Shown piece by piece: positions 5,542 through 11,829 of a stretch of DNA of 51,148 nt (its first letter is position 1; every line of letters begins with the position of its first letter). The notes below the pieces were generated by a model. That model saw only the letters and a list, made by a program, of their open reading frames with translations. It was not told the DNA's origin and did no database searches. Position numbers and translations under genes: made by a program. The DNA is from Minisyncoccota bacterium (lineage in GTDB: Bacteria; Patescibacteriota; Minisyncoccia; UBA6257; JAGOQP01), in the NCBI GenBank assembly GCA_017991375.1, contig JAGOQP010000001.1:1-51148 (forward strand), in the 5' to 3' direction.

Positions 5542-7005
5542 ATGAATAAAGAGCGTATTTTCAGGAACATACATATTTTCCTGGTTATAGCACTTTTGTC
5601 TGTGGTTGTTTTTAATGGCGCCTTGGGGGTTGTTTTCGCAACGGTTGTTTTAGACACCACTCCGCCGGTGCTCAATCTACCCTCTGATATGTGGGTCAGC
5701 GCACCAGGTCCTAGTGGAGCGATCGTTTCTTTCTCCGCGACGGCTACCGATACAGATCCAACTAATCCAACAGTGACTTGTACACCAGCATCGGGTTCGG
5801 TGTTTCCTCTTGGGTCTACCACTGTTTCTTGTTCCGCTACCGATACAGCCGGAAACACCGCAACGGGAAGTTTTGTTGTTTCTGTCGGTGGGGCAAAAAT
5901 TACCAGTGAACGTGTGACTTTGAATGGTACCAGTACAGTCACGGTCAAGGGAGGTGATACTGTTACCGCTACTATGGTCAATACCAGTGTCATGTCGGGT
6001 GAGTGGATGTCAACCAGCTATCAGATAGGAGGGGGTGAATTTCGTGTTGATACTCCAAATCATGGAGTCGGGGTTGGCTACACCGAATCATTTCCAATTA
6101 CCGCGCCTATAGCAGAAGGAGTTTATACGGTTATGTTCGGTTTTTGTGATACAGAAGGTTGTTTGGGCGATCCTATCATCCAAAGTGGATTGCCGGGTGG
6201 TTTAATTGTAGACAACACTCCTCCAGTGTTGAGTTTACCAGCTGACACTTTTGCTAGTGCTTCTGGGCCAAGCGGAATCGCCGTTTCTTTCTCCGCGACG
6301 GCTACCGATACAGATCCAACTAATCCAACAGTGACTTGTACACCAGCATCGGGTTCGGTGTTTCCTCTTGGGTCTACCACTGTTTCTTGTTCCGCTACCG
6401 ATACAGCCGGAAACACCGCAACGGGAAGTTTTGTTGTTTCTGTCGGTGGGGCAAAAATTACCAGTGAACGTGTGACTTTGAATGGTACCAGTACAGTCAC
6501 GGTCAAGGGAGGTGATACTGTTACCGCTACTATGGTCAATACCAGTGTCATGTCGGGTGAGTGGATGTCAACCAGCTATCAGATAGGAGAAGGTAGTGTT
6601 GTTTGTGTTGATACGCCCAATCATGGTGTTGGTACTAATTACACAGAATCGTTTCCTATTGTCGCCCCTCTTGCAGAGGGAGCATATACTGTTATGTTTG
6701 GTTTCTTCAGTGAAGAAAATTGCTCAGGTGATCCCGCGATACGTAGCGGGCTTCCTAACGGGTTGGTGGTGGACACCACTCCCTCTCCTGCTTTCTCTAT
6801 ACTTGGTGGGTCTGGAGGTGGAAGCACAGAATCAGCGGTGTATAGGATTGGCGATATTAACAAAGACCGTCAAGTTAATTTACTCGATCTCGTGCTCATG
6901 ATGGCAAATTGGGGGAAAACCGGATACAACGAGTGTGATCTCAATCGTGATGGAATCGTCGATAAATACGATTTTGCGTTGCTCATGCTTAATTGGGGAC
7001 TCTAA
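5542..7005 (+). CDS. secreted protein with two HYR-type modules and a C-terminal dockerin-like domain
   Basis: N-terminal signal anchor. The HYR-like block TPPVL.LP.D...A.GPSG..VSFSATATDTDPTNPTVTCTPASGSVFPLGSTTVSCSATDTAGNTATGSFVVSV occurs twice. The C-terminus GDINKDRQVNLLDLVLMM...CDLNRDGIVDKYDFALLML is the two-segment dockerin signature. Confidence 0.8.
   Translation: MNKERIFRNIHIFLVIALLSVVVFNGALGVVFATVVLDTTPPVLNLPSDMWVSAPGPSGAIVSFSATATDTDPTNPTVTCTPASGSVFPLGSTTVSCSATDTAGNTATGSFVVSVGGAKITSERVTLNGTSTVTVKGGDTVTATMVNTSVMSGEWMSTSYQIGGGEFRVDTPNHGVGVGYTESFPITAPIAEGVYTVMFGFCDTEGCLGDPIIQSGLPGGLIVDNTPPVLSLPADTFASASGPSGIAVSFSATATDTDPTNPTVTCTPASGSVFPLGSTTVSCSATDTAGNTATGSFVVSVGGAKITSERVTLNGTSTVTVKGGDTVTATMVNTSVMSGEWMSTSYQIGEGSVVCVDTPNHGVGTNYTESFPIVAPLAEGAYTVMFGFFSEENCSGDPAIRSGLPNGLVVDTTPSPAFSILGGSGGGSTESAVYRIGDINKDRQVNLLDLVLMMANWGKTGYNECDLNRDGIVDKYDFALLMLNWGL
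5724..6031 (+). repeat. 308-bp perfect direct repeat, copy 1 (inside the HYR/dockerin CDS)
   Basis: Identical base-for-base to 6282-6589. The offset is 558 nt, which is 186 codons. Confidence 0.95.
6282..6589 (+). repeat. 308-bp perfect direct repeat, copy 2
   Basis: Identical to 5724-6031. Flanking bases differ: t5723 vs c6281, and g6032 vs a6590. Confidence 0.95.
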
Positions 7006-7020
7006 TACTTACTCAAATAT

Positions 7021-7776
7021 ATGAAAAAAAATTATTGCGCACAGATAGTAATGTCGTTATTTATCACAGTGCTTCTAGTCGGTGGGGTAAGTGGTGTTAC
7101 CTATGCAGTCCAACCAACACTTTCTGTTTCTCCAACAGGAGGGAACAAAACACAAGGAGCAAGTTTTCAATCCTCAGTTAATCTCAATGGTGCGGGAGGA
7201 AAAATATGCGCGGTCGAGGGAACAGTGGTGTTTGACAATCTTTCATGCCGAAGTATTACAGCGGTAGCTGATGATGTTATGGTTCAGTCATCACCAACGT
7301 GCGCAAGACCACATTTTCTCGTTGGTATTCCTAACTGCACTACGTCGGGGAAATTGCTTTTTAATGTGGTAGTTAACGCTCCAACGATAGGTTCTGCGGC
7401 GATTAGACTGAATGATGTTGATGTGGTTGGCGAGGGGGTATCACTCTCTCCAGAGGTAACAGGAGCCTCTTATACCATTGTTGCTGCTCCACAGGGGTCA
7501 GTTCCTGCCACCACCACCGAAGAACAAGAGATTCCGTTTGAGGTTCAAGTGGAACAACCCACCTCAAGTCCTGCGGCTACTGTTATAAATGAAGAGCCAA
7601 ATCTTCTCTTGGCATCTATCGGTAGCTTGATTACTCTAAAAACGGGAAACAATATCGTAGGAATCATCGTTTTGTTTGTTATCTGTTTCGTAGTGTATCT
7701 GCTCATAACTTACTTTTTGAGAAAAAAGTCAAAAAAGGAGAATGGTAGCCGGATAAATCAAAACACACGGTGGTAA
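7021..7776 (+). CDS. membrane-anchored surface protein with cohesin-like domain
   Basis: Signal peptide, then an all-beta segment (FQSSVNLNGAGGKICAVEGTVVFDN...GKLLFNVVVNAPTIGSAAIRLNDVDV). This is followed by a T/P/E-rich linker and a C-terminal TM helix plus basic tail (IVGIIVLFVICFVVYLLITYFLRKKSKK). It starts 16 nt after the dockerin gene. Confidence 0.6.
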   Translation: MKKNYCAQIVMSLFITVLLVGGVSGVTYAVQPTLSVSPTGGNKTQGASFQSSVNLNGAGGKICAVEGTVVFDNLSCRSITAVADDVMVQSSPTCARPHFLVGIPNCTTSGKLLFNVVVNAPTIGSAAIRLNDVDVVGEGVSLSPEVTGASYTIVAAPQGSVPATTTEEQEIPFEVQVEQPTSSPAATVINEEPNLLLASIGSLITLKTGNNIVGIIVLFVICFVVYLLITYFLRKKSKKENGSRINQNTRW

Positions 7777-7878
7777 GGTAGTATATGAAAACATAAAAAC
7801 ACCCTCGATAGCACGTCGGGGGTGTTTGACTTATATTTACTATATGTTATAATAGAGTACGCAAAGGAGGATAGAACA

Positions 7879-8352
7879 TTGAAAGAAAAAGTAGGTATCA
7901 TCGCTTTTTCGTGGGGGTTTGGAGGTAGGGTTGACCCATGCAATGAGCGGCTTGCTCGTGCCGCTCAGAGAGCTGTATGGCTTCTCTCCGAGCACGGGTA
8001 TATTCCCATAGTTGTGGCTCAAATTGAGGTTTCTCAATATCTTTCTGACGTTGAACACGTTGTGAGGCAGTCAATAAACACTGGTGCATATCTTGGCACA
8101 GAAGAGGTGGCCTACCAAGCGGCCGATGTGTTCGTTCGCCACGGGGTTCGGCGTGTCGTAGTCATCGCAAATCCATTTCTGCATCTGCGCAAGTGCATGC
8201 GCTTGATGCGGGCAATGAATTTTGAAGTCATCCCATTCACAGTGGGGCGTATCGGGTTTAACTCGTATGATCGACAGTGGTTTCCTCGCGGGCCACTACG
8301 GACAATCGCATACGCGATTGCCCAGAAGTTCTTTGGCTTGCATGGTGCGTGA
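7879..8352 (+). CDS. hypothetical protein (possibly DUF218/YdcF-like)
   Basis: The TTG start at 7879 lies 8 nt after AAGGAGG. Promoter TTGACT (7826-7831), 16 nt, TATAAT (7848-7853). Followed by two hairpins (8340-8370; 8376-8390 plus T6). The fold assignment is weak. Confidence 0.6.
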   Translation: MKEKVGIIAFSWGFGGRVDPCNERLARAAQRAVWLLSEHGYIPIVVAQIEVSQYLSDVEHVVRQSINTGAYLGTEEVAYQAADVFVRHGVRRVVVIANPFLHLRKCMRLMRAMNFEVIPFTVGRIGFNSYDRQWFPRGPLRTIAYAIAQKFFGLHGA

Positions 8353-8459: not shown

Positions 8460-9317
8460 ATGAGGTGCACATTGATAGCGTTCTTATGGATAGCAATAAC
8501 AACAAACATTGCTATCGCACAATCGGGGGGTGTAACAGCAACTCCGTTTGGGGCCACTTCTCTTTCTATTCCCGTTGAGTCCGGCCAGAAGTTTGACCTT
8601 AACTGGGTCAGGCTGGGGCTCGATGGAAAGTTTGAGAAACACCCTCGGTTTATCGATGGGTTAGCGTTTCAGCTTGAATACGAACTCTGCGGCGAAGTTG
8701 TCAAGAAGTCGTATATCGAAGCGCAAAAGAAATTCGGCGATGCGACAACCGTCTTTGTTGCGGCTGGAAGGTGGTTGGATCCAGTGGCCTCTGTGTATCC
8801 GGGCCCAATCGCCCTACCGCTGACTCGGTATCAAGATGCTTCAAACGAGTTCCGTGCGACAAATGATGGGGTGCGTGTTCGTCTTGTGCGCGAGGGAGTG
8901 TCGTTTCAGGTTGCGTGGTGGAACAGCGAAGGAAAGCACGAAGCTTCCTCGTCAGTTGTTGCCGGACCGGTATCTCTTTACTACAGTAGCGTGGATGGAT
9001 ATGGTGGAAAGGTTGATGTGGTTGCTCATCAAACATATGCTAATCTCACTGTGGGCGGTGCTGTGGTGTGGGAAGGGGGTGATCCATTCTATCTTGGAGG
9101 GGATGGGAAAACTATCTTTATCCAGAATGAATGGAGAGCTTCTAACTCACTCAGTGCCTGGATCCTTCAAGAGTGGCGTTGGAGTGATGTGTCCAACAAG
9201 CGTCAAAGTTATCCATTGGTGGGATGGACGTACACATATCGTCCTAGAAGCTACTTGAAGGTGTACTACGACAAGCGCGATAACTCAATCCAAACACGTG
9301 TTACCTTCTCGTTCTAG
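8460..9317 (+). CDS. secreted beta-barrel (outer-membrane-protein-like) protein
   Basis: Signal peptide ...TNIAIA|QSGG. Alternating-hydrophobic beta-strand pattern throughout, with a C-terminal ...IQTRVTFSF ending in Phe (OMP beta-signal-like). Own promoter (TTGACT 8408-8413, 17 nt, TAGTAT 8431-8436) and terminator (9343-9371). Confidence 0.6.
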   Translation: MRCTLIAFLWIAITTNIAIAQSGGVTATPFGATSLSIPVESGQKFDLNWVRLGLDGKFEKHPRFIDGLAFQLEYELCGEVVKKSYIEAQKKFGDATTVFVAAGRWLDPVASVYPGPIALPLTRYQDASNEFRATNDGVRVRLVREGVSFQVAWWNSEGKHEASSSVVAGPVSLYYSSVDGYGGKVDVVAHQTYANLTVGGAVVWEGGDPFYLGGDGKTIFIQNEWRASNSLSAWILQEWRWSDVSNKRQSYPLVGWTYTYRPRSYLKVYYDKRDNSIQTRVTFSF

Positions 9318-9459
9318 CCAGCTACTTCTTTTTGCTCTTTGTGAGCGCTCCATCGGAGCGCTCTTTATTTTAGATAATTAAGCGATGTTTTGATTATAAA
9401 CTTCTCGGAGTGACGTGTTGTAATAATGTTCCACCGAGTTTTGATTTTTGGCAAAAGAT

Positions 9460-9478
9460 TGCTGGGGGACAGGGATTC
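9460..9478 (-). repeat. orphan copy of the tRNA-Gln 3' end (direct repeat)
   Basis: TGCTGGGGGACAGGGATTC at 9460-9478 is identical to 9840-9858, which covers the 3' acceptor/T-arm end of tRNA-Gln. Confidence 0.9.
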
Positions 9479-9839
9479 TCTTCGGTAAACTCAGGGCAAG
9501 TCATCCAATCCTCAAAACTTCAACAAGCTCAGTACAAACATTATATCCTAACTTATGATCTAGTAACATTTGCTTCTTTGCACGAGACCAGCCCTTAATT
9601 TGTTTTTCTCGTAGTGCTGCTTCGTATTTTTTTAGATATCTCTCACAATATAGAAACTTAATATCAGAAAACTTTGAAGTGAAGAATGACTTTCCCTCTC
9701 TGTGCATGTTCAATCTTTTTTGAGGATTATCAGTTATCCCTACATAAAAAGTTTTCTGATCGCAAAGAAGCATGTACACATACCACATAATAAGTACAGT
9801 ATAACTCTTTTAAAAATGCCTGCACTGAGCTTGCCGAAG
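9479..9839 (-). mobile_element. putative 361-bp insertion carrying only a GIY-YIG gene, bounded by the tRNA-Gln 3'-end repeats
   Basis: The segment lies between two perfect 19-bp direct repeats derived from the tRNA 3' end. It contains one ORF and one hairpin. No integrase is present. Confidence 0.35.
9501..9788 (-). CDS. stand-alone GIY-YIG nuclease family protein
   Basis: 95 aa. The sequence WYVYMLLCDQKTFYVGITDNPQKRLNMHREGK...REKQIKGWSRAKK is a GIY-YIG (UPF0213/YhbQ-type) module. Confidence 0.8.
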   Translation of the reverse strand: MWYVYMLLCDQKTFYVGITDNPQKRLNMHREGKSFFTSKFSDIKFLYCERYLKKYEAALREKQIKGWSRAKKQMLLDHKLGYNVCTELVEVLRIG

Positions 9840-9841
9840 TG

Positions 9842-9912
9842 CTGGGGGACAGGGATTCGGACCCCGATTAATGGCTTCAAAGGCCACTGTCCTACCATTA
9901 GACGATCCCCCA
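9842..9912 (-). tRNA. tRNA-Gln (anticodon UUG)
   Basis: The reverse complement folds as a cloverleaf: acceptor TGGGGGA/TCCCCCA, anticodon stem GTGGC/GCCAT, loop CTTTGAA (UUG), T arm CGGGG-TCCGAAT-CCCTG. 71 nt; CCA is not encoded. Confidence 0.9.
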
Positions 9913-10067
9913 AATTTTTGACCTATATACGTTACAATGATTAAGCATTTAAATCAATATGAGTCAATTGACTTGGTTGTAAATCAAAACGATAATAAGG
10001 GTAGCACTTATCGTTTTTCGTACCTTTTCAACTTCATAGTGATTGCCGGCTCAAAAAGGAGGGCGCG

Positions 10068-10175
10068 ATGCGAGGGATAAAACCAGAAAACGTTCCAAGG
10101 TTTGTAGGACAAGATGTTGCGTTGGTTATGCGAGAAGCGCAGTATGTGATTTCTATTGATACTGAGTGTGTATAA
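10068..10175 (+). CDS. 35-codon small ORF (MRGIKPENVPRFVGQDVALVMREAQYVISIDTECV)
   Basis: AAAGGAGG lies 7 nt upstream of the ATG. Promoter TTGACT (9968-9973), 17 nt, GATAAT (9991-9996). A bidirectional hairpin at 10211-10236 lies downstream. No homology recognised. Confidence 0.35.
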   Translation: MRGIKPENVPRFVGQDVALVMREAQYVISIDTECV

Positions 10176-10314
10176 CATATTCAAGCCGGCGGGGGATTTT
10201 TGTTTTAAAAAAGTCGCCTCTTTCCTGAAGCGACTTTGCGTGGGCATTGATTACTCTTGTGTTGTTTAGGTATTTTTTTTGTTGGTTGTTCTTTGTGGGT
10301 TGTTTGTTCTTTCG

Positions 10315-10644
10315 CTACATCAATAACGCACCGAGGGCCACGAGCGTGTTGAGTATAAACATTGCAATGTTCACAAAAATAATAGGGCGTTCTTTATGAA
10401 GTGCTCCATATACGATCCACACCGTATTGCTTATCGCGTACGCACTCCACGAGATAACAGAAATGCCTTGCGTGTTTTGCTTGATGTACACGTCATACAC
10501 TTGCGGGAGTGTCATAATGGGAACAAAAATACTGGCGCAGTATACGAGGACATCAAAAACGCGAACATATCGTTTAGGATGTGGATATTGTTCTAAATTT
10601 TTATGAATCCGTTTTCGGACTGAAAGATGATGGAGAGGAAGCAT
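10315..10644 (-). CDS. SemiSWEET / PQ-loop family transporter
   Basis: Three TM helices with the pattern ...IFVPIMTLPQVYDVYIKQNTQGISVISW...VWIVYG...PIIFVNIAMFILN, characteristic of bacterial SemiSWEETs. The start is placed at the internal Met (MLPLHH...) because the upstream part of the ORF translates the low-complexity spacer. Confidence 0.7.
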   Translation of the reverse strand: MLPLHHLSVRKRIHKNLEQYPHPKRYVRVFDVLVYCASIFVPIMTLPQVYDVYIKQNTQGISVISWSAYAISNTVWIVYGALHKERPIIFVNIAMFILNTLVALGALLM

Positions 10645-10725
10645 AGATAGTGATAAGTGATTAGTGATAAGTGGGGAAAATAATCTTTGGTGTGTGGTCA
10701 AAGATTAACTATCAAGGATTAATAA

Positions 10726-11829
10726 TCACTTCAGTGTTTCTATGATGGCGATTTCAAAAGGGACTAATGGGAAAGGATTGTAGCGCATCTGAGTATAGGC
10801 CTCAATCAATGCTTTAATAAGGGCAATAAGATAGTCAGAATTAACTTTTTCGGCGTGTTGTTTAATGTGCGTCAACTGGCTGTGCGCGATTTCTTGGGAA
10901 AAGAGTGTTTCAAGAGTAGGGTTGAGGGAAAGCGAGAGGGTTCGCCTCAGATATTCAGTTACATCCTTGTTAAACTGAAACAAATTATATCCATCATTGC
11001 TAATCGTATGCAAAAAAAGTAACGCTTTATTTAAATCTTTTTGGATAAGTGCGTCAGCCATGGTCACGGTTTTTGCAAAGTCAACCTTTCCCAGTACCGA
11101 TTCCACGTGCTCAACTGAGACATTTTTTTGTTTCATTGAGGCGATTTGATCCAGAAGCGATTCGGCGTCTCGCACGCTTCCATCTGCCAGATGAGCAAGA
11201 AGCTCAAGCGCGTCACGGGTATAGTTCAATTGTTCCTGGCGCGCAATACGTTCAAGTTTATTGGCAATCTCCTCGAGTGTTAATTTGCGAAAGTGAAAAC
11301 GCTGAGTGCGCGACACGATAGTCGACGGGACTTTTTCATATTCGGTAGTGGCAAGTATAAATATGGCGTGTGCGGGGGGTTCCTCTAATGTCTTAAGGAG
11401 TGCGTTGAATGCGGGCGTGGTGAGCATGTGCACTTCGTCTATAATAAATACTTTTTTTGCGCACACGGAAGGGAGTGTGCGAATATGCTCCCTTAAATCT
11501 CTTATTTCATCAATGCCGCGATTTGATGCCGCGTCTATTTCCACCACATCAAGCGCGTGACCCGTATCTATCTGAGCGCATGTTGAACAACCGTTGCATG
11601 GCTCTCCCTCTTTTTTAAACGTCTCATCCTCGGCTCGTTTTTGGCAATTGATTGTTTTTGCAAGCAAGCGAGCAATAGTTGTTTTTCCAGTTCCCCGCGG
11701 GCCATAAAAAAGGTATGCGTGCGCAAACGCGTGTTCTCGTGCCGCATTTTTGAGAATAGCAACGATCGTCTCTTGGCCGACGATGTCAGAAAGTTTTTTT
11801 GGTCTGTATTTACGGTAGAGGGCAAGCAT
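10726..11829 (-). CDS. dnaX: DNA polymerase III subunit gamma/tau (short form)
   Basis: Walker A GPRGTGKTT, Zn module CNGCSTC, Walker B IIDEVHML, sensor SRTQRF. 367 aa. Confidence 0.92.
   Translation of the reverse strand: MLALYRKYRPKKLSDIVGQETIVAILKNAAREHAFAHAYLFYGPRGTGKTTIARLLAKTINCQKRAEDETFKKEGEPCNGCSTCAQIDTGHALDVVEIDAASNRGIDEIRDLREHIRTLPSVCAKKVFIIDEVHMLTTPAFNALLKTLEEPPAHAIFILATTEYEKVPSTIVSRTQRFHFRKLTLEEIANKLERIARQEQLNYTRDALELLAHLADGSVRDAESLLDQIASMKQKNVSVEHVESVLGKVDFAKTVTMADALIQKDLNKALLFLHTISNDGYNLFQFNKDVTEYLRRTLSLSLNPTLETLFSQEIAHSQLTHIKQHAEKVNSDYLIALIKALIEAYTQMRYNPFPLVPFEIAIIETLK

What the first reader, a model, noticed from the sequence alone, without database searches (positions are those of the whole stretch)
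9460..9912. Lone GIY-YIG nuclease gene bracketed by a perfect duplication of the tRNA-Gln 3' end
tRNA-Gln(UUG) runs 9912->9842 on the minus strand. Its terminal 19 nt (plus-strand TGCTGGGGGACAGGGATTC, 9840-9858) recur perfectly at 9460-9478. The 361 bp between the repeats hold exactly one gene, a 95-aa stand-alone GIY-YIG nuclease on the same strand (9788->9501), plus one hairpin (GCACT...AGTGC). Duplication of a tRNA 3' end around foreign DNA is the classic footprint of site-specific insertion into a tRNA gene. Here, though, there is no integrase. The only cargo is a nuclease of the family that includes homing endonucleases. This could be a minimal nuclease-driven mobile unit that targets the tRNA-Gln T-arm/acceptor region and restores the gene. 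Alternatively it could be the last remnant of a larger decayed island.
Basis: partly seen in the sequence, partly recalled or inferred. Interest (0 to 1): 0.65.

Follow-up and report, generated by a model that had tools for sequence, protein, structure and literature searches.

The report
Tiny nuclease cassette behind tRNA-Gln
A 361-bp cassette that encodes only a 95-residue GIY-YIG nuclease sits behind an intact tRNA-Gln gene and is followed by a copy of the tRNA's last 19 bases; it belongs to a widespread, apparently undescribed family that sits behind many tRNA genes in ultra-small (CPR) bacteria.

Summary
An exact 19-mer (tRNA-Gln nt 57-73 plus CA) brackets 361 bp holding one 95-aa GIY-YIG gene.

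New here: each end of the block is a hairpin. The same motif (a 3-4 bp stem closing the loop TTCGRCARGCTCA) lies on opposite strands at the two ends.

Homologues 40-87% identical have the same layout behind tRNA-Asn, Glu, Ser, Gln, Tyr, His and Asp in dozens of species. Each is followed by a 14-24 nt copy of its own tRNA's 3' end. The stems covary strongly. The nuclease is under purifying selection (dN/dS about 0.1), and the distal repeat is conserved far beyond neutral expectation.

The dnaX-tRNA-Gln neighbourhood is conserved in about 25 relatives. None of them carries this cassette, and the nearest has an empty site. Remnants and 100%-identical tandem copies also exist. No integrase is involved.

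Best reading: a mobile, or recently mobile, nuclease-only hairpin cassette that targets tRNA 3' ends without breaking them. Whether its own nuclease makes the cuts is inferred, not shown.

I found no published description.

The parts
9841..9912 (-). tRNA-Gln(UUG), intact. Its T-loop reads TCCGAAT.
   Evidence: ARAGORN; Rfam RF00005, 61.3 bits
9840..9858 (-). Proximal direct repeat (DR1). It is tRNA nt 57-73 plus CA and is part of the working tRNA.
9822..9842 (-). Left-end hairpin (LE), GCACT-TCGGCAAGCTC-AGTGC. The family core is a 3-4 bp stem closing the loop TTCGGCAAGCTCA (9838-9826). The outer stem pairs use the discriminator G and the C/A after it.
   Evidence: Sequence; DNA fold; family covariation
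9789..9821 (-). Short leader between LE and the start codon. No convincing promoter of its own, so expression is probably by read-through from the tRNA promoter (inferred).
9501..9788 (-). 95-aa single-domain GIY-YIG nuclease of the Slx1/UPF0213-like branch. Catalytic Y5, Y15, R25, H29, E61 and N83 are conserved.
9516..9542 (+). Internal inverted copy of the end motif, inside the codons for the C-terminal tail (NVCTELVEV). It is complementary to LE with 21 Watson-Crick plus 5 G.T pairs of 26.
   Evidence: I1
9477..9497 (+). Right-end hairpin motif (RE), read on the plus strand: TC-TC-TTCGGTAAACTCA-GGGC. It is the same motif as LE but on the opposite strand. In this copy the stem has one T.G mismatch.
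   Evidence: I2
9460..9478 (-). Distal direct repeat (DR2): an orphan copy of tRNA nt 57-73 plus CA, followed by unrelated flank.

Best explanation
The 361 bp between the repeats (9479-9839) are one copy of a family of very small selfish DNA cassettes found mainly in Patescibacteria (CPR).

**What a cassette contains**
- A hairpin at each end. The same motif lies on opposite strands, so the ends are true terminal inverted repeats read at the DNA level.
- One gene, for a bare ~95-aa Slx1/UPF0213-type GIY-YIG nuclease.
- A copy of the target tRNA's nt 57-73, directly beyond the right-end hairpin.

**Where it sits.** It lies immediately after the discriminator base of a tRNA gene, with 0-3 ambiguous bases. 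The tRNA therefore stays intact, and the nuclease gene is probably expressed by read-through from the tRNA promoter.

**Proposed mechanism (inferred, not shown)**
1. The nuclease recognises the hairpin ends as folded single-stranded or extruded DNA, as shown for the related Ssn nucleases.
2. It breaks the tRNA gene at two points: in the T-loop (between nt 56 and 57 on the antisense strand) and at the 3' end (nt 73-75 on the sense strand).
3. Host repair then copies or ligates the cassette in by one of two routes:
   - as a 17-19-nt staggered-cut duplication; or
   - by homing-type synthesis-dependent repair, in which the distal repeat serves as the right-hand homology arm.

**Shown here:** the anatomy, the family, the target-specific repeats, covarying hairpins, selection on the protein and on the non-coding ends, empty syntenic sites, remnants and tandem copies.

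**Inferred:** that the nuclease makes the cuts, where the cuts fall, and the repair route.
For: **Same unit behind different tRNAs**
- P0006 and P0010 (75% and 74% aa identity) lie behind tRNA-Ser(GCT). They have near-identical ends (CTTCGGCAAGCTCAGTGCAAGC ... GCCCTGAGTTTACCGAAGG) and a 19-nt repeat of the tRNA-Ser 3' end.
- Of 59 species-level genome loci with at least 50% identity to the family consensus, 57 have the end motif and 37 have a tRNA directly upstream on the same strand. The tRNAs are Asn, Glu, Gln, Ser, Tyr, His and Asp; three Asn genes were missed by ARAGORN because they carry group I introns.
- 32 of the 59 have an exact repeat of at least 14 nt. Repeat-to-repeat spacing is 310-432 bp.

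**Repeat boundaries**
- Repeats always match the local tRNA type and start at T-loop nt 57-60.

**Hairpins**
- In 75 distinct end sequences, 89% of cells are paired. The covariation score is 0.677 against 0.217 in shuffles (0 of 500 reach it) and at most 0.144 when the partner is slid.
- Stem types include CAC/GTG, CCC/GGG, TCC/GGA, TGG/CCA, TAG/CTA and CAG/CTG.

**Protein**
- Y15, G17, R25, H29, E61 and N83 are invariant.
- dN/dS is about 0.1 in three close pairs.
- Nearest structures are UPF0213 BH0048 and EF2693, then Slx1.

**Non-coding parts are not neutral**
- L006 and L008 differ at dS=0.52 in the ORF. Yet their 42-nt left end plus leader and their 19-nt DR2 are identical. The chance of 19 neutral sites staying identical is about 1e-4.

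**Presence and absence**
- dnaX followed by tRNA-Gln is conserved in about 25 metagenome relatives. This cassette is absent from all of them.
- L094, the nearest relative (64% DnaX identity), has a plain tRNA-Gln with no insert.

**Decay and recent activity**
- L152 keeps only a right-end-like stub plus a 17-nt repeat.
- L060 has two 100%-identical tandem copies. L014 has a full copy plus a truncated identical one.

**The distal repeat looks like the original tRNA end**
- In about 9 loci the distal copy is followed by CA, giving an encoded CCA that the proximal copy lacks.

**Target switching**
- tRNA type changes at least 14 times on a 43-protein tree (the minimum possible is 7). The window's Gln element nests among Ser elements.
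Against: - No movement, cleavage or empty allele was observed for this species. All five public contigs with the identical protein are occupied. Logan contigs showed no joint that skips the cassette, but coverage was low and contigs drop rare variants.
- The relatives with empty sites are distant (at most 64% DnaX identity). They show gain or loss over long times, not current mobility.
- tRNA type is significantly clustered on the protein tree (14 changes against 26.9 in shuffles). Much of the distribution could therefore be long residence and vertical descent.
- A GIY-YIG domain has no known strand-transfer activity, so integration must rely on host functions.
- In this copy the isolated hairpins do not fold better than shuffles (z = -0.61 and +0.53), and the right-end stem has a mismatch.
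- Only one copy lies in the 51-kb window. The rest of the genome could not be searched.
Confidence: 0.6

Rival explanations
1. The cassette is or was mobile, but the nuclease is not the integrating enzyme. Insertion, tandem duplication and loss would come from host recombination or replication slippage between short repeats and hairpins, or from an enzyme supplied in trans. The nuclease would have another selfish or host role, for example cutting competitor or incoming single-stranded DNA as Ssn does in Neisseria.
For: - GIY-YIG domains only hydrolyse DNA. Ssn nucleases flanked by hairpin repeats modulate transformation, and no transposition has been shown for them (PMC11893778).
- The tandem copies in L060 and L014 could arise by unequal exchange between the direct repeats.
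- tRNA type is clustered on the tree.
Against: - Across 75 distinct end sequences, the conserved hairpin loop with covarying stems sits exactly at the cassette boundaries on both strands. That is the signature of ends read by a dedicated protein, and the only protein that always travels with them is the nuclease.
- No second conserved gene accompanies the unit.
Confidence: 0.2
2. This is a fixed, domesticated tRNA-linked gene rather than a mobile element. The nuclease would be a host repair enzyme co-transcribed with tRNAs. The hairpins and the orphan tRNA 3' copy would act at the RNA level, in processing, stability or translation control of the tRNA-mRNA co-transcript.
For: - Strong purifying selection on the protein.
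- The leader is complementary to the codons of the C-terminal tail, with all 5 mismatches being G.U-compatible in the window.
- There is a slight family-wide excess of G.T over A.C pairs, 115 against 88.
- No separate promoter was found.
Against: - Distribution is patchy: the cassette is absent from all ~25 syntenic dnaX-tRNA-Gln loci of relatives.
- It sits behind different tRNAs in different genomes, with repeats that match each local tRNA.
- The end motif is the same sequence on opposite strands. That is DNA symmetry, which an RNA would not need.
- Remnants and identical tandem copies exist.
- Rfam finds no RNA family here except the tRNA.
Confidence: 0.1
3. This is the last remnant of a larger integrase-borne genomic island that once integrated into tRNA-Gln. 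The 19-bp repeat would be the old attL/attR core.
For: - Duplication of a tRNA 3' end is the classic integrase footprint.
- The genes beyond DR2 (8460-9317 and onward) are orphans. The 285-aa protein has no homologue other than itself.
Against: - DR2 abuts the nuclease gene's own end hairpin. The orphan genes lie outside the repeats.
- The same compact 310-432-bp unit with the same ends recurs in 33 loci behind seven tRNA types, with no integrase nearby.
- The unit is essentially absent from viral contigs: 1 partial hit in 2.9 million.
Confidence: 0.03

Closest known systems
Ssn nucleases with NTS/SRM hairpin repeats (cd10448; Chenal et al., Nat Commun 2025, PMC11893778)
   Same: - A single-domain GIY-YIG protein of about 94 aa.
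- The gene is flanked on both sides by short hairpin-forming repeats, an architecture the authors call IS-like.
- The enzyme binds the hairpin in single-stranded DNA and cuts a few nt upstream. This would place cuts at the cassette boundaries here.
   Different: - The published SRM search motif has no match anywhere in the window. The hairpin here is a 3-4 bp stem with a conserved 13-nt loop.
- The paper does not mention tRNA: 0 occurrences of the word. It describes no target duplication.
- NTS repeats are dispersed in hundreds of copies, whereas here the motif marks the two ends of one unit.
- Whether this protein falls in cd10448 could not be tested. Its nearest solved structures are UPF0213 proteins.
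Free-standing GIY-YIG homing endonuclease genes of phages (Seg family; SegB in the T4 tRNA gene cluster, PMC2330249)
   Same: - A lone GIY-YIG nuclease gene lodged among or behind tRNA genes.
- It is presumed to spread by cutting alleles that lack it, followed by repair that copies it in.
   Different: - Seg and I-TevI enzymes are 200-250 aa with a separate DNA-binding domain. This protein is 95 aa, a bare catalytic core of the Slx1/UPF0213 branch.
- Seg genes have no terminal hairpins and no duplication of the target.
- This family is cellular and nearly absent from viral contigs.
Integrase-mediated genomic islands and prophages in tRNA genes
   Same: A direct repeat of the tRNA 3' end brackets foreign DNA, and the tRNA stays functional.
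   Different: - No integrase is present.
- The unit is 361 bp.
- The repeat matches whichever tRNA the unit sits behind, even between closely related elements (Gln against Ser at about 75% aa identity). It therefore appears to be made from the target rather than carried as an attP.
IS200/IS605-family elements and REP/RAYT systems
   Same: - Very small elements.
- The ends are DNA hairpins recognised as single strands.
- Bases flanking the hairpin contribute to the cleavage site.
   Different: - Those use an HUH Y1 transposase and make no target duplication.
- Here the only protein is a GIY-YIG nuclease, and a 17-19-nt duplication is present.
Slx1 / UPF0213 (YhbQ, BH0048, EF2693) structure-specific GIY-YIG nucleases
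   Same: The best sequence and fold matches: 1zg2 at E=7.7e-10, 1ywl, then Slx1 (7cq2, 6seh). Slx1 cuts branched or folded DNA rather than a sequence.
   Different: Those proteins are regarded as host repair factors. They are not reported with terminal hairpins, tRNA linkage or target duplications.

Membership tests
GIY-YIG nuclease superfamily (Pfam PF01541) | Profile match above the curated cut-off | tested here: met
   57.9 bits against a cut-off of 22.6, E=1.3e-15, residues 1-72
GIY-YIG nuclease superfamily (Pfam PF01541) | Catalytic residues present: the two Tyr of GIY and YIG, plus Arg, His, Glu and Asn | tested here: met
   Y15, G17, R25, H29, E61 and N83 are invariant and Y5 nearly invariant in 16 homologues. 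The model shows a GIY-YIG-like beta-beta-alpha-beta-alpha fold, pLDDT 85.
Ssn family (cd10448) with SRM hairpins | Gene flanked on both sides by hairpin repeats | tested here: met
   The same hairpin motif lies at both ends on opposite strands.
Ssn family (cd10448) with SRM hairpins | Flanking repeats fit the published SRM consensus HGTCWYN(0-2)YYVSBRHN(0-5)WNVSBRGN(0-2)RNCYNB | tested here: not met
   0 matches on either strand of the whole window
Ssn family (cd10448) with SRM hairpins | Assignment to CDD family cd10448, and ssDNA-only site-specific cleavage | not testable with these tools
   No CDD library or Ssn sequence is held. NCBIfam gave no hit. Cleavage needs an enzyme assay.
UPF0213 / Slx1-like branch of GIY-YIG | Closest sequence and fold relatives are UPF0213 proteins and Slx1 | tested here: met
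   Profile against PDB: 1zg2 at 7.7e-10, 1ywl at 5.9e-08, Slx1 7cq2 at 0.006. Foldseek ranks 1zg2, 1ywl, then Slx1 entries, all at probability 1.00.
Free-standing homing endonuclease (Seg / I-TevI type) | GIY-YIG domain joined to a separate DNA-binding domain; protein of about 200-250 aa | tested here: not met
   95 aa, a single domain covering residues 1-72 and then a short tail. PHROGs hits are weak: 6.8e-05 over 28 residues.
Free-standing homing endonuclease (Seg / I-TevI type) | Cuts the allele that lacks it and is copied in by repair | not testable with these tools
   Needs cleavage and co-conversion experiments. The differing proximal and distal repeats in L021 and L031 are compatible with this but not diagnostic.
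Integrase-type tRNA island | Tyrosine or serine integrase inside the repeats | tested here: not met
   Only one ORF of 60 aa or more with a domain hit lies between the repeats. No integrase appears in any related locus table.
IS200/IS605 | HUH Y1 transposase (TnpA); no target duplication | tested here: not met
   The protein is GIY-YIG. A 19-bp duplication is present.

The most novel reading that the evidence does not exclude
These cassettes would be a new class of autonomous prokaryotic mobile element whose only protein is a ~95-aa Slx1/UPF0213-type GIY-YIG nuclease with no DNA-binding domain.

- **Recognition** would be supplied by nucleic-acid structure: the element's own covarying end hairpins, whose outer stem pairs are made with target bases, and the T-loop and 3' end of tRNA genes. 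The conserved loop TTCGR resembles the T-loop TTCGA.
- **The distal tRNA copy** would be a working part of the element, namely the right-hand homology arm for copy-in repair, and not a passive footprint. That would explain why it stays identical to the tRNA while synonymous sites in the ORF diverge by 0.5 per site.
Probability: 0.4. Interest if true: 0.9.

Novelty: new variant of a known kind. Interest (0 to 1): 0.72.

Why it matters
- **A very small self-contained element.** If the nuclease does drive insertion, this would be among the smallest self-contained mobile elements known, at about 360 bp. It would also be the first in which a bare GIY-YIG domain, helped by DNA hairpins, does the job usually done by an integrase or transposase.
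- **A function for an unexplained protein family.** It would give a concrete role to part of the large UPF0213/Slx1-like family of small bacterial nucleases, whose function is largely unexplained.
- **Orphan tRNA fragments in CPR genomes.** It would explain many orphan tRNA 3' fragments in these genomes.
- **A possible tool.** It would offer a compact nuclease guided by structure and sequence, with a natural safe-harbour target.
- **Direct testability.** The system needs only one small protein, two 20-nt hairpins and a tRNA gene.

Tried and rejected
- **Whole-genome search.** Copy number in this genome and genome-wide occurrence of the 19-mer could not be tested.
- **Rfam.** At E<=1 over 8800-10800, only the tRNA was found.
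- **NCBIfam, PADLOC, PHROGs.** No NCBIfam hit. PADLOC and PHROGs gave only weak partial hits to the GIY motif. Nothing points to a defence system.
- **Empty alleles within the species.**
  - Five public contigs with the identical protein are all occupied.
  - Laying Logan contigs of four DNA runs gave no joint.
  - That call did show one 93%-identical element copy next to a different tRNA-like repeat start in run X7, which I could not retrieve further.
- **Neighbour-based search for relatives.** The 285-aa neighbour has no homologue but itself.
- **A clean empty tRNA-Ser site.** I tried nitroreductase homologues of L008 and four context look-ups. Synteny is not conserved, so this was a dead end.
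- **Viral contigs.** One partial hit only, so phage carriage was rejected.
- **RNA runs.** They hold at most 9% of the words, so they are not informative.
- **RNA versus DNA test by wobble pairs.** The count was 115 G.T against 88 A.C, which is inconclusive.
- **Stability of the isolated hairpins in this copy.** Not better than shuffles. The support for the hairpins comes from covariation, not from energy.
- **Literature.** Five full-text searches found no description of tRNA-linked GIY-YIG hairpin cassettes.
Full report
**1. Observation**

The 19-mer TGCTGGGGGACAGGGATTC occurs exactly twice in the window, at 9460-9478 and 9840-9858. No further match appears even at three mismatches, and 0.01 matches are expected by chance. 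tRNA-Gln(UUG) lies at 9841/9842-9912 on the minus strand.

On that strand the repeat reads GAATCCCTGTCCCCCAGCA. This is T-loop G57 to discriminator G73 plus CA. Between the copies lie 361 bp with one 95-aa ORF (9788->9501), which matches Pfam GIY-YIG at E=1.3e-15.

**2. Anatomy found on closer reading**

Directly inside the two direct repeats are imperfect inverted repeats, 9480-9498 and 9821-9839 (16 of 19 complementary; I2). On the tRNA strand the order is:

- tRNA...GAATCCCTGTCCCCCAGCA
- CTTCGGCAAGCTCAGTGCAGG (left end)
- leader, then ORF
- CTTGCCCTGAGTTTACCGAAG-A (right end)
- GAATCCCTGTCCCCCAGCA (distal repeat)

A third, inverted copy of the motif lies in the codons of the C-terminal tail NVCTELVEV (9516-9542). 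It is complementary to the left end over 26 nt, with 21 Watson-Crick and 5 G.T pairs (I1). The whole unit as a single strand folds better than shuffles (z=-3.8). The isolated end hairpins of this particular copy do not.

**3. It is one member of a large family**

The protein has 345 relatives at E<=0.001 in the first search. Many are 65-80% identical and come from CPR bins.

- *Same unit behind tRNA-Ser.* P0006 and P0010 (75% and 74% aa identity in the alignment) sit 44 nt behind tRNA-Ser(GCT). They have almost the same two ends and a 19-nt repeat of the tRNA-Ser 3' end, GAATCCTTCCGCCTCCGCA.
- *Counts among the 59 loci with at least 50% identity to the consensus*:

| Feature | Loci |
|---|---|
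| Carry the end motif | 57 |
| tRNA directly upstream on the same strand | 37 |
| Exact repeat of at least 14 nt | 32 |

- *tRNA types.* The 37 upstream tRNAs are Asn 12, Glu 10, Gln 6, Ser 4, Tyr 2, His 2 and Asp 1. Three of the Asn genes carry group I introns and were missed by ARAGORN.
- *Size.* Repeat-to-repeat spacing is 310-432 bp.
- *Repeat identity.* The repeat always matches the local tRNA type and begins at T-loop nt 57-60.
- *Several per genome.* Two diverged cassettes can occur in one genome: L039 and L063 lie on one contig, behind Glu and His.
- *Not phage-borne.* The family is essentially absent from 2.9 million viral contigs.

**4. The ends are hairpins read at the DNA level**

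I aligned 75 distinct end sequences: left ends on the sense strand and right ends on the antisense strand. They show an invariant loop core, TTC.....CTCA (consensus TTCGRCARGCTCA), closed by a short stem.

- The stem sequence changes while its pairing is kept. Types seen are CAC/GTG, CCC/GGG, TCC/GGA, TGG/CCA, TAG/CTA, CAG/CTG and CCA/TGG.
- 89% of cells are paired. The covariation score is 0.677 against 0.217 in shuffles (0 of 500 reach it), and at most 0.144 when the partner is slid by 1-3 columns. The three inner pairs are 95-100% paired.
- The same motif stands on opposite strands at the two ends. This symmetry belongs to a DNA transposon or to the NTS-ssnA-NTS layout, not to an RNA.
- The outermost stem pairs are made with target-derived bases: the discriminator and C74 on the left, and the complement of G57 on the right.

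**5. The protein**

- Catalytic residues are conserved.
- The AlphaFold model has pLDDT 85 for the core. The C-terminal tail, which is encoded by the internal motif copy, is poorly defined at 54-59.
- Nearest solved proteins by sequence and by fold are the UPF0213 proteins BH0048 and EF2693, then Slx1, a structure-specific nuclease. I-TevI/Seg-type enzymes are not among the matches.
- dN/dS is about 0.1: 0.05/0.52, 0.05/0.65 and 0.18/0.98 in three pairs. The nuclease is therefore kept functional.

**6. Evidence of gain, loss and recent activity**

- dnaX followed by tRNA-Gln on the same strand is conserved in about 25 metagenome relatives. None carries this cassette.
- The nearest relative, L094 (64% DnaX identity), has a plain tRNA-Gln followed by unrelated sequence.
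- L100 and L102 carry a different small GIY-YIG gene at that place. L103, with the same tRNA, is empty.
- L152 keeps only a right-end-like stub and a 17-nt repeat. L137 and L147 have non-coding inserts with further tRNA-Gln 3' copies.
- L060 has two 100%-identical cassettes in tandem behind tRNA-Gln. L014 has one full and one truncated identical copy.
- On a 43-protein tree, tRNA type changes at least 14 times against a minimum of 7. It is still clustered (26.9 changes in shuffles). The window's Gln cassette nests among Ser cassettes.

Residence behind one tRNA type is therefore the rule, and switches are occasional.

**7. What the repeat is**

- Empty CPR tRNA-Gln genes mostly have C, CA or CCA after the discriminator. 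This explains why the window's repeat runs two bases past G73.
- In about nine loci the distal copy is followed by CA, giving an encoded CCA that the proximal copy lacks. The distal copy therefore looks like the original tRNA end.
- The junction with the left end (CAC TTCGG) shows 0-3 ambiguous bases.
- The distal repeat is not neutral. L006 and L008 differ by dS=0.52 in the ORF, yet both keep all 19 repeat bases and all 42 bases of left end plus leader. The chance of 19 neutral sites staying identical is about 1e-4. Either the distal repeat is needed by the element, or it is renewed by repeated insertion or homing.
- In L021 and L031 the two copies differ at six positions, yet both look like tRNA-Asn 3' ends. 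This fits either homing between diverged tRNA-Asn genes with co-conversion, or an old insertion followed by compensatory tRNA evolution. I could not separate the two.

**8. Mechanism**

- *Shown:* everything in sections 1-7.
- *Inferred:* the nuclease recognises the end hairpins as folded single strands. The related Ssn enzymes bind a hairpin in ssDNA and cut a few nt upstream (PMC11893778), which would fall at the cassette boundaries here.
- *Inferred breaks:* the tRNA gene would be broken between nt 56 and 57 on the antisense strand and at nt 73-75 on the sense strand.
- *Route A:* the two nicks lie 17-19 nt apart, the cassette is ligated in and the gaps are filled. This gives a target duplication of unusual polarity, with 3' overhangs.
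- *Route B:* the gene is cut in the palindromic T-loop TTC|GAA and repaired by synthesis-dependent strand annealing from an occupied allele. The broken right end pairs with the donor's distal repeat, which would make that repeat a functional homology arm.

Route B explains the conservation of the distal repeat and the loci with unequal repeats. Route A more easily explains switches to new tRNA types. I put 0.6 on 'mobile cassette whose own nuclease initiates insertion', and about 0.8 on 'mobile or recently mobile selfish cassette' regardless of the enzyme.

**9. Comparison with what is known**

- *Ssn/NTS family* (the closest published system). It shares the small single-domain GIY-YIG protein and the hairpin repeats on both sides. 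Its SRM consensus is absent from the window. The paper never mentions tRNA. CDD membership could not be tested.
- *Phage Seg endonucleases.* They share only the catalytic fold and, for SegB, a tRNA neighbourhood.
- *Integrase islands.* They share the tRNA 3' repeat but not the enzyme or the size.
- *IS200/IS605.* It shares hairpin ends but uses an HUH transposase and makes no duplication.

Five full-text searches found no description of this cassette.

Earlier notes of this scan describe the same design in other genomes. I used them as leads only. The points they raised were re-tested on my own loci: empty sites, CCA on the distal copy, and the Ssn comparison.

**10. Limits**

- No raw reads were available, only Logan contigs.
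- The relatives with empty sites are distant.
- Many MAG labels in the genome collection (for example 'uncultured Gammaproteobacteria' and 'Methanoperedens') may be unreliable, so I draw no conclusion on cross-phylum or cross-domain transfer.

Noticed in passing
window 9841-9912 (also L100, L102, L103, L138, L031): The T-loop of tRNA-Gln reads TCCGAAT. It has C at position 55, where U (pseudouridine 55) is almost universal. The same is seen in several CPR tRNA-Gln genes and in one tRNA-Asn gene.
   Followed up: no
L018:2003-2381, L019:2198-2392, L031:2199-2406: tRNA-Asn genes that carry a group I intron (Rfam RF00028, 61-87 bits) and also a GIY-YIG cassette at their 3' end. Two different selfish elements sit in one tRNA gene. 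ARAGORN misses these tRNAs.
   Followed up: partly
window 9516-9542 vs 9815-9841: The cassette's leader is complementary to the codons of the conserved C-terminal tail (CTELVEV), with 21 Watson-Crick plus 5 G.T pairs of 26. Across the family, each left end fits its own internal copy better than those of other cassettes (mean 7.57 against 6.52 of 14, permutation p<0.001, relatedness not controlled). The tail has low pLDDT. The tail's sequence may therefore be set by the nucleic acid rather than by the protein.
   Followed up: partly
window 8460-9317: A 285-aa ORF directly beyond the distal repeat has no homologue except itself among 5.8 billion proteins. The next ORFs (7822-8352, 7021-7776) also have no Pfam hit on record in the related contigs.
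   Followed up: partly
window 5542-7005: A 487-aa secreted protein with an internal duplication of about 190 aa (two near-identical HYR-like blocks) and a C-terminal dockerin-like segment.
   Followed up: no
L100:5142-5480, L102:2580-2900: A different small GIY-YIG gene (about 40% identical to the family consensus, YhbQ-like) occupies the same place behind the syntenic tRNA-Gln. It has different hairpin-like flanks and no obvious distal tRNA repeat. L103, with the same tRNA, is empty.
   Followed up: partly
L137:2781-2870; L147:4473-4510; L152:5283-5340: Non-coding inserts or stubs behind syntenic tRNA-Gln genes, each ending in another copy of a tRNA-Gln 3' end. They are possible deletion derivatives or MITE-like relatives of the cassette.
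   Followed up: no
L006:3333-3410; L008:3333-3478: Beyond the distal repeat of the tRNA-Ser cassettes lies a third, 11-nt copy of the tRNA-Ser 3' end (CCGCCTCCGCA / CCGCCCCCGCA). It follows 80-150 nt of unrelated sequence that differs between the two genomes. These look like layered insertion footprints at one tRNA.
   Followed up: no
L017 (contig DATMWB010000025.1): A cassette 66% identical to the window's, behind tRNA-Asn with an 18-nt repeat, lies in a MAG labelled Candidatus Methanoperedens (an archaeon). This is either a binning error or a cross-domain transfer.
   Followed up: no
run X7, laid on window 9502-9762: A 308-nt contig 93% identical to the window's cassette continues beyond the right-end hairpin into GGAAATCCAA... 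instead of GAGAATCCCTG. This is a very close relative of the cassette next to a different tRNA-like end.
   Followed up: no
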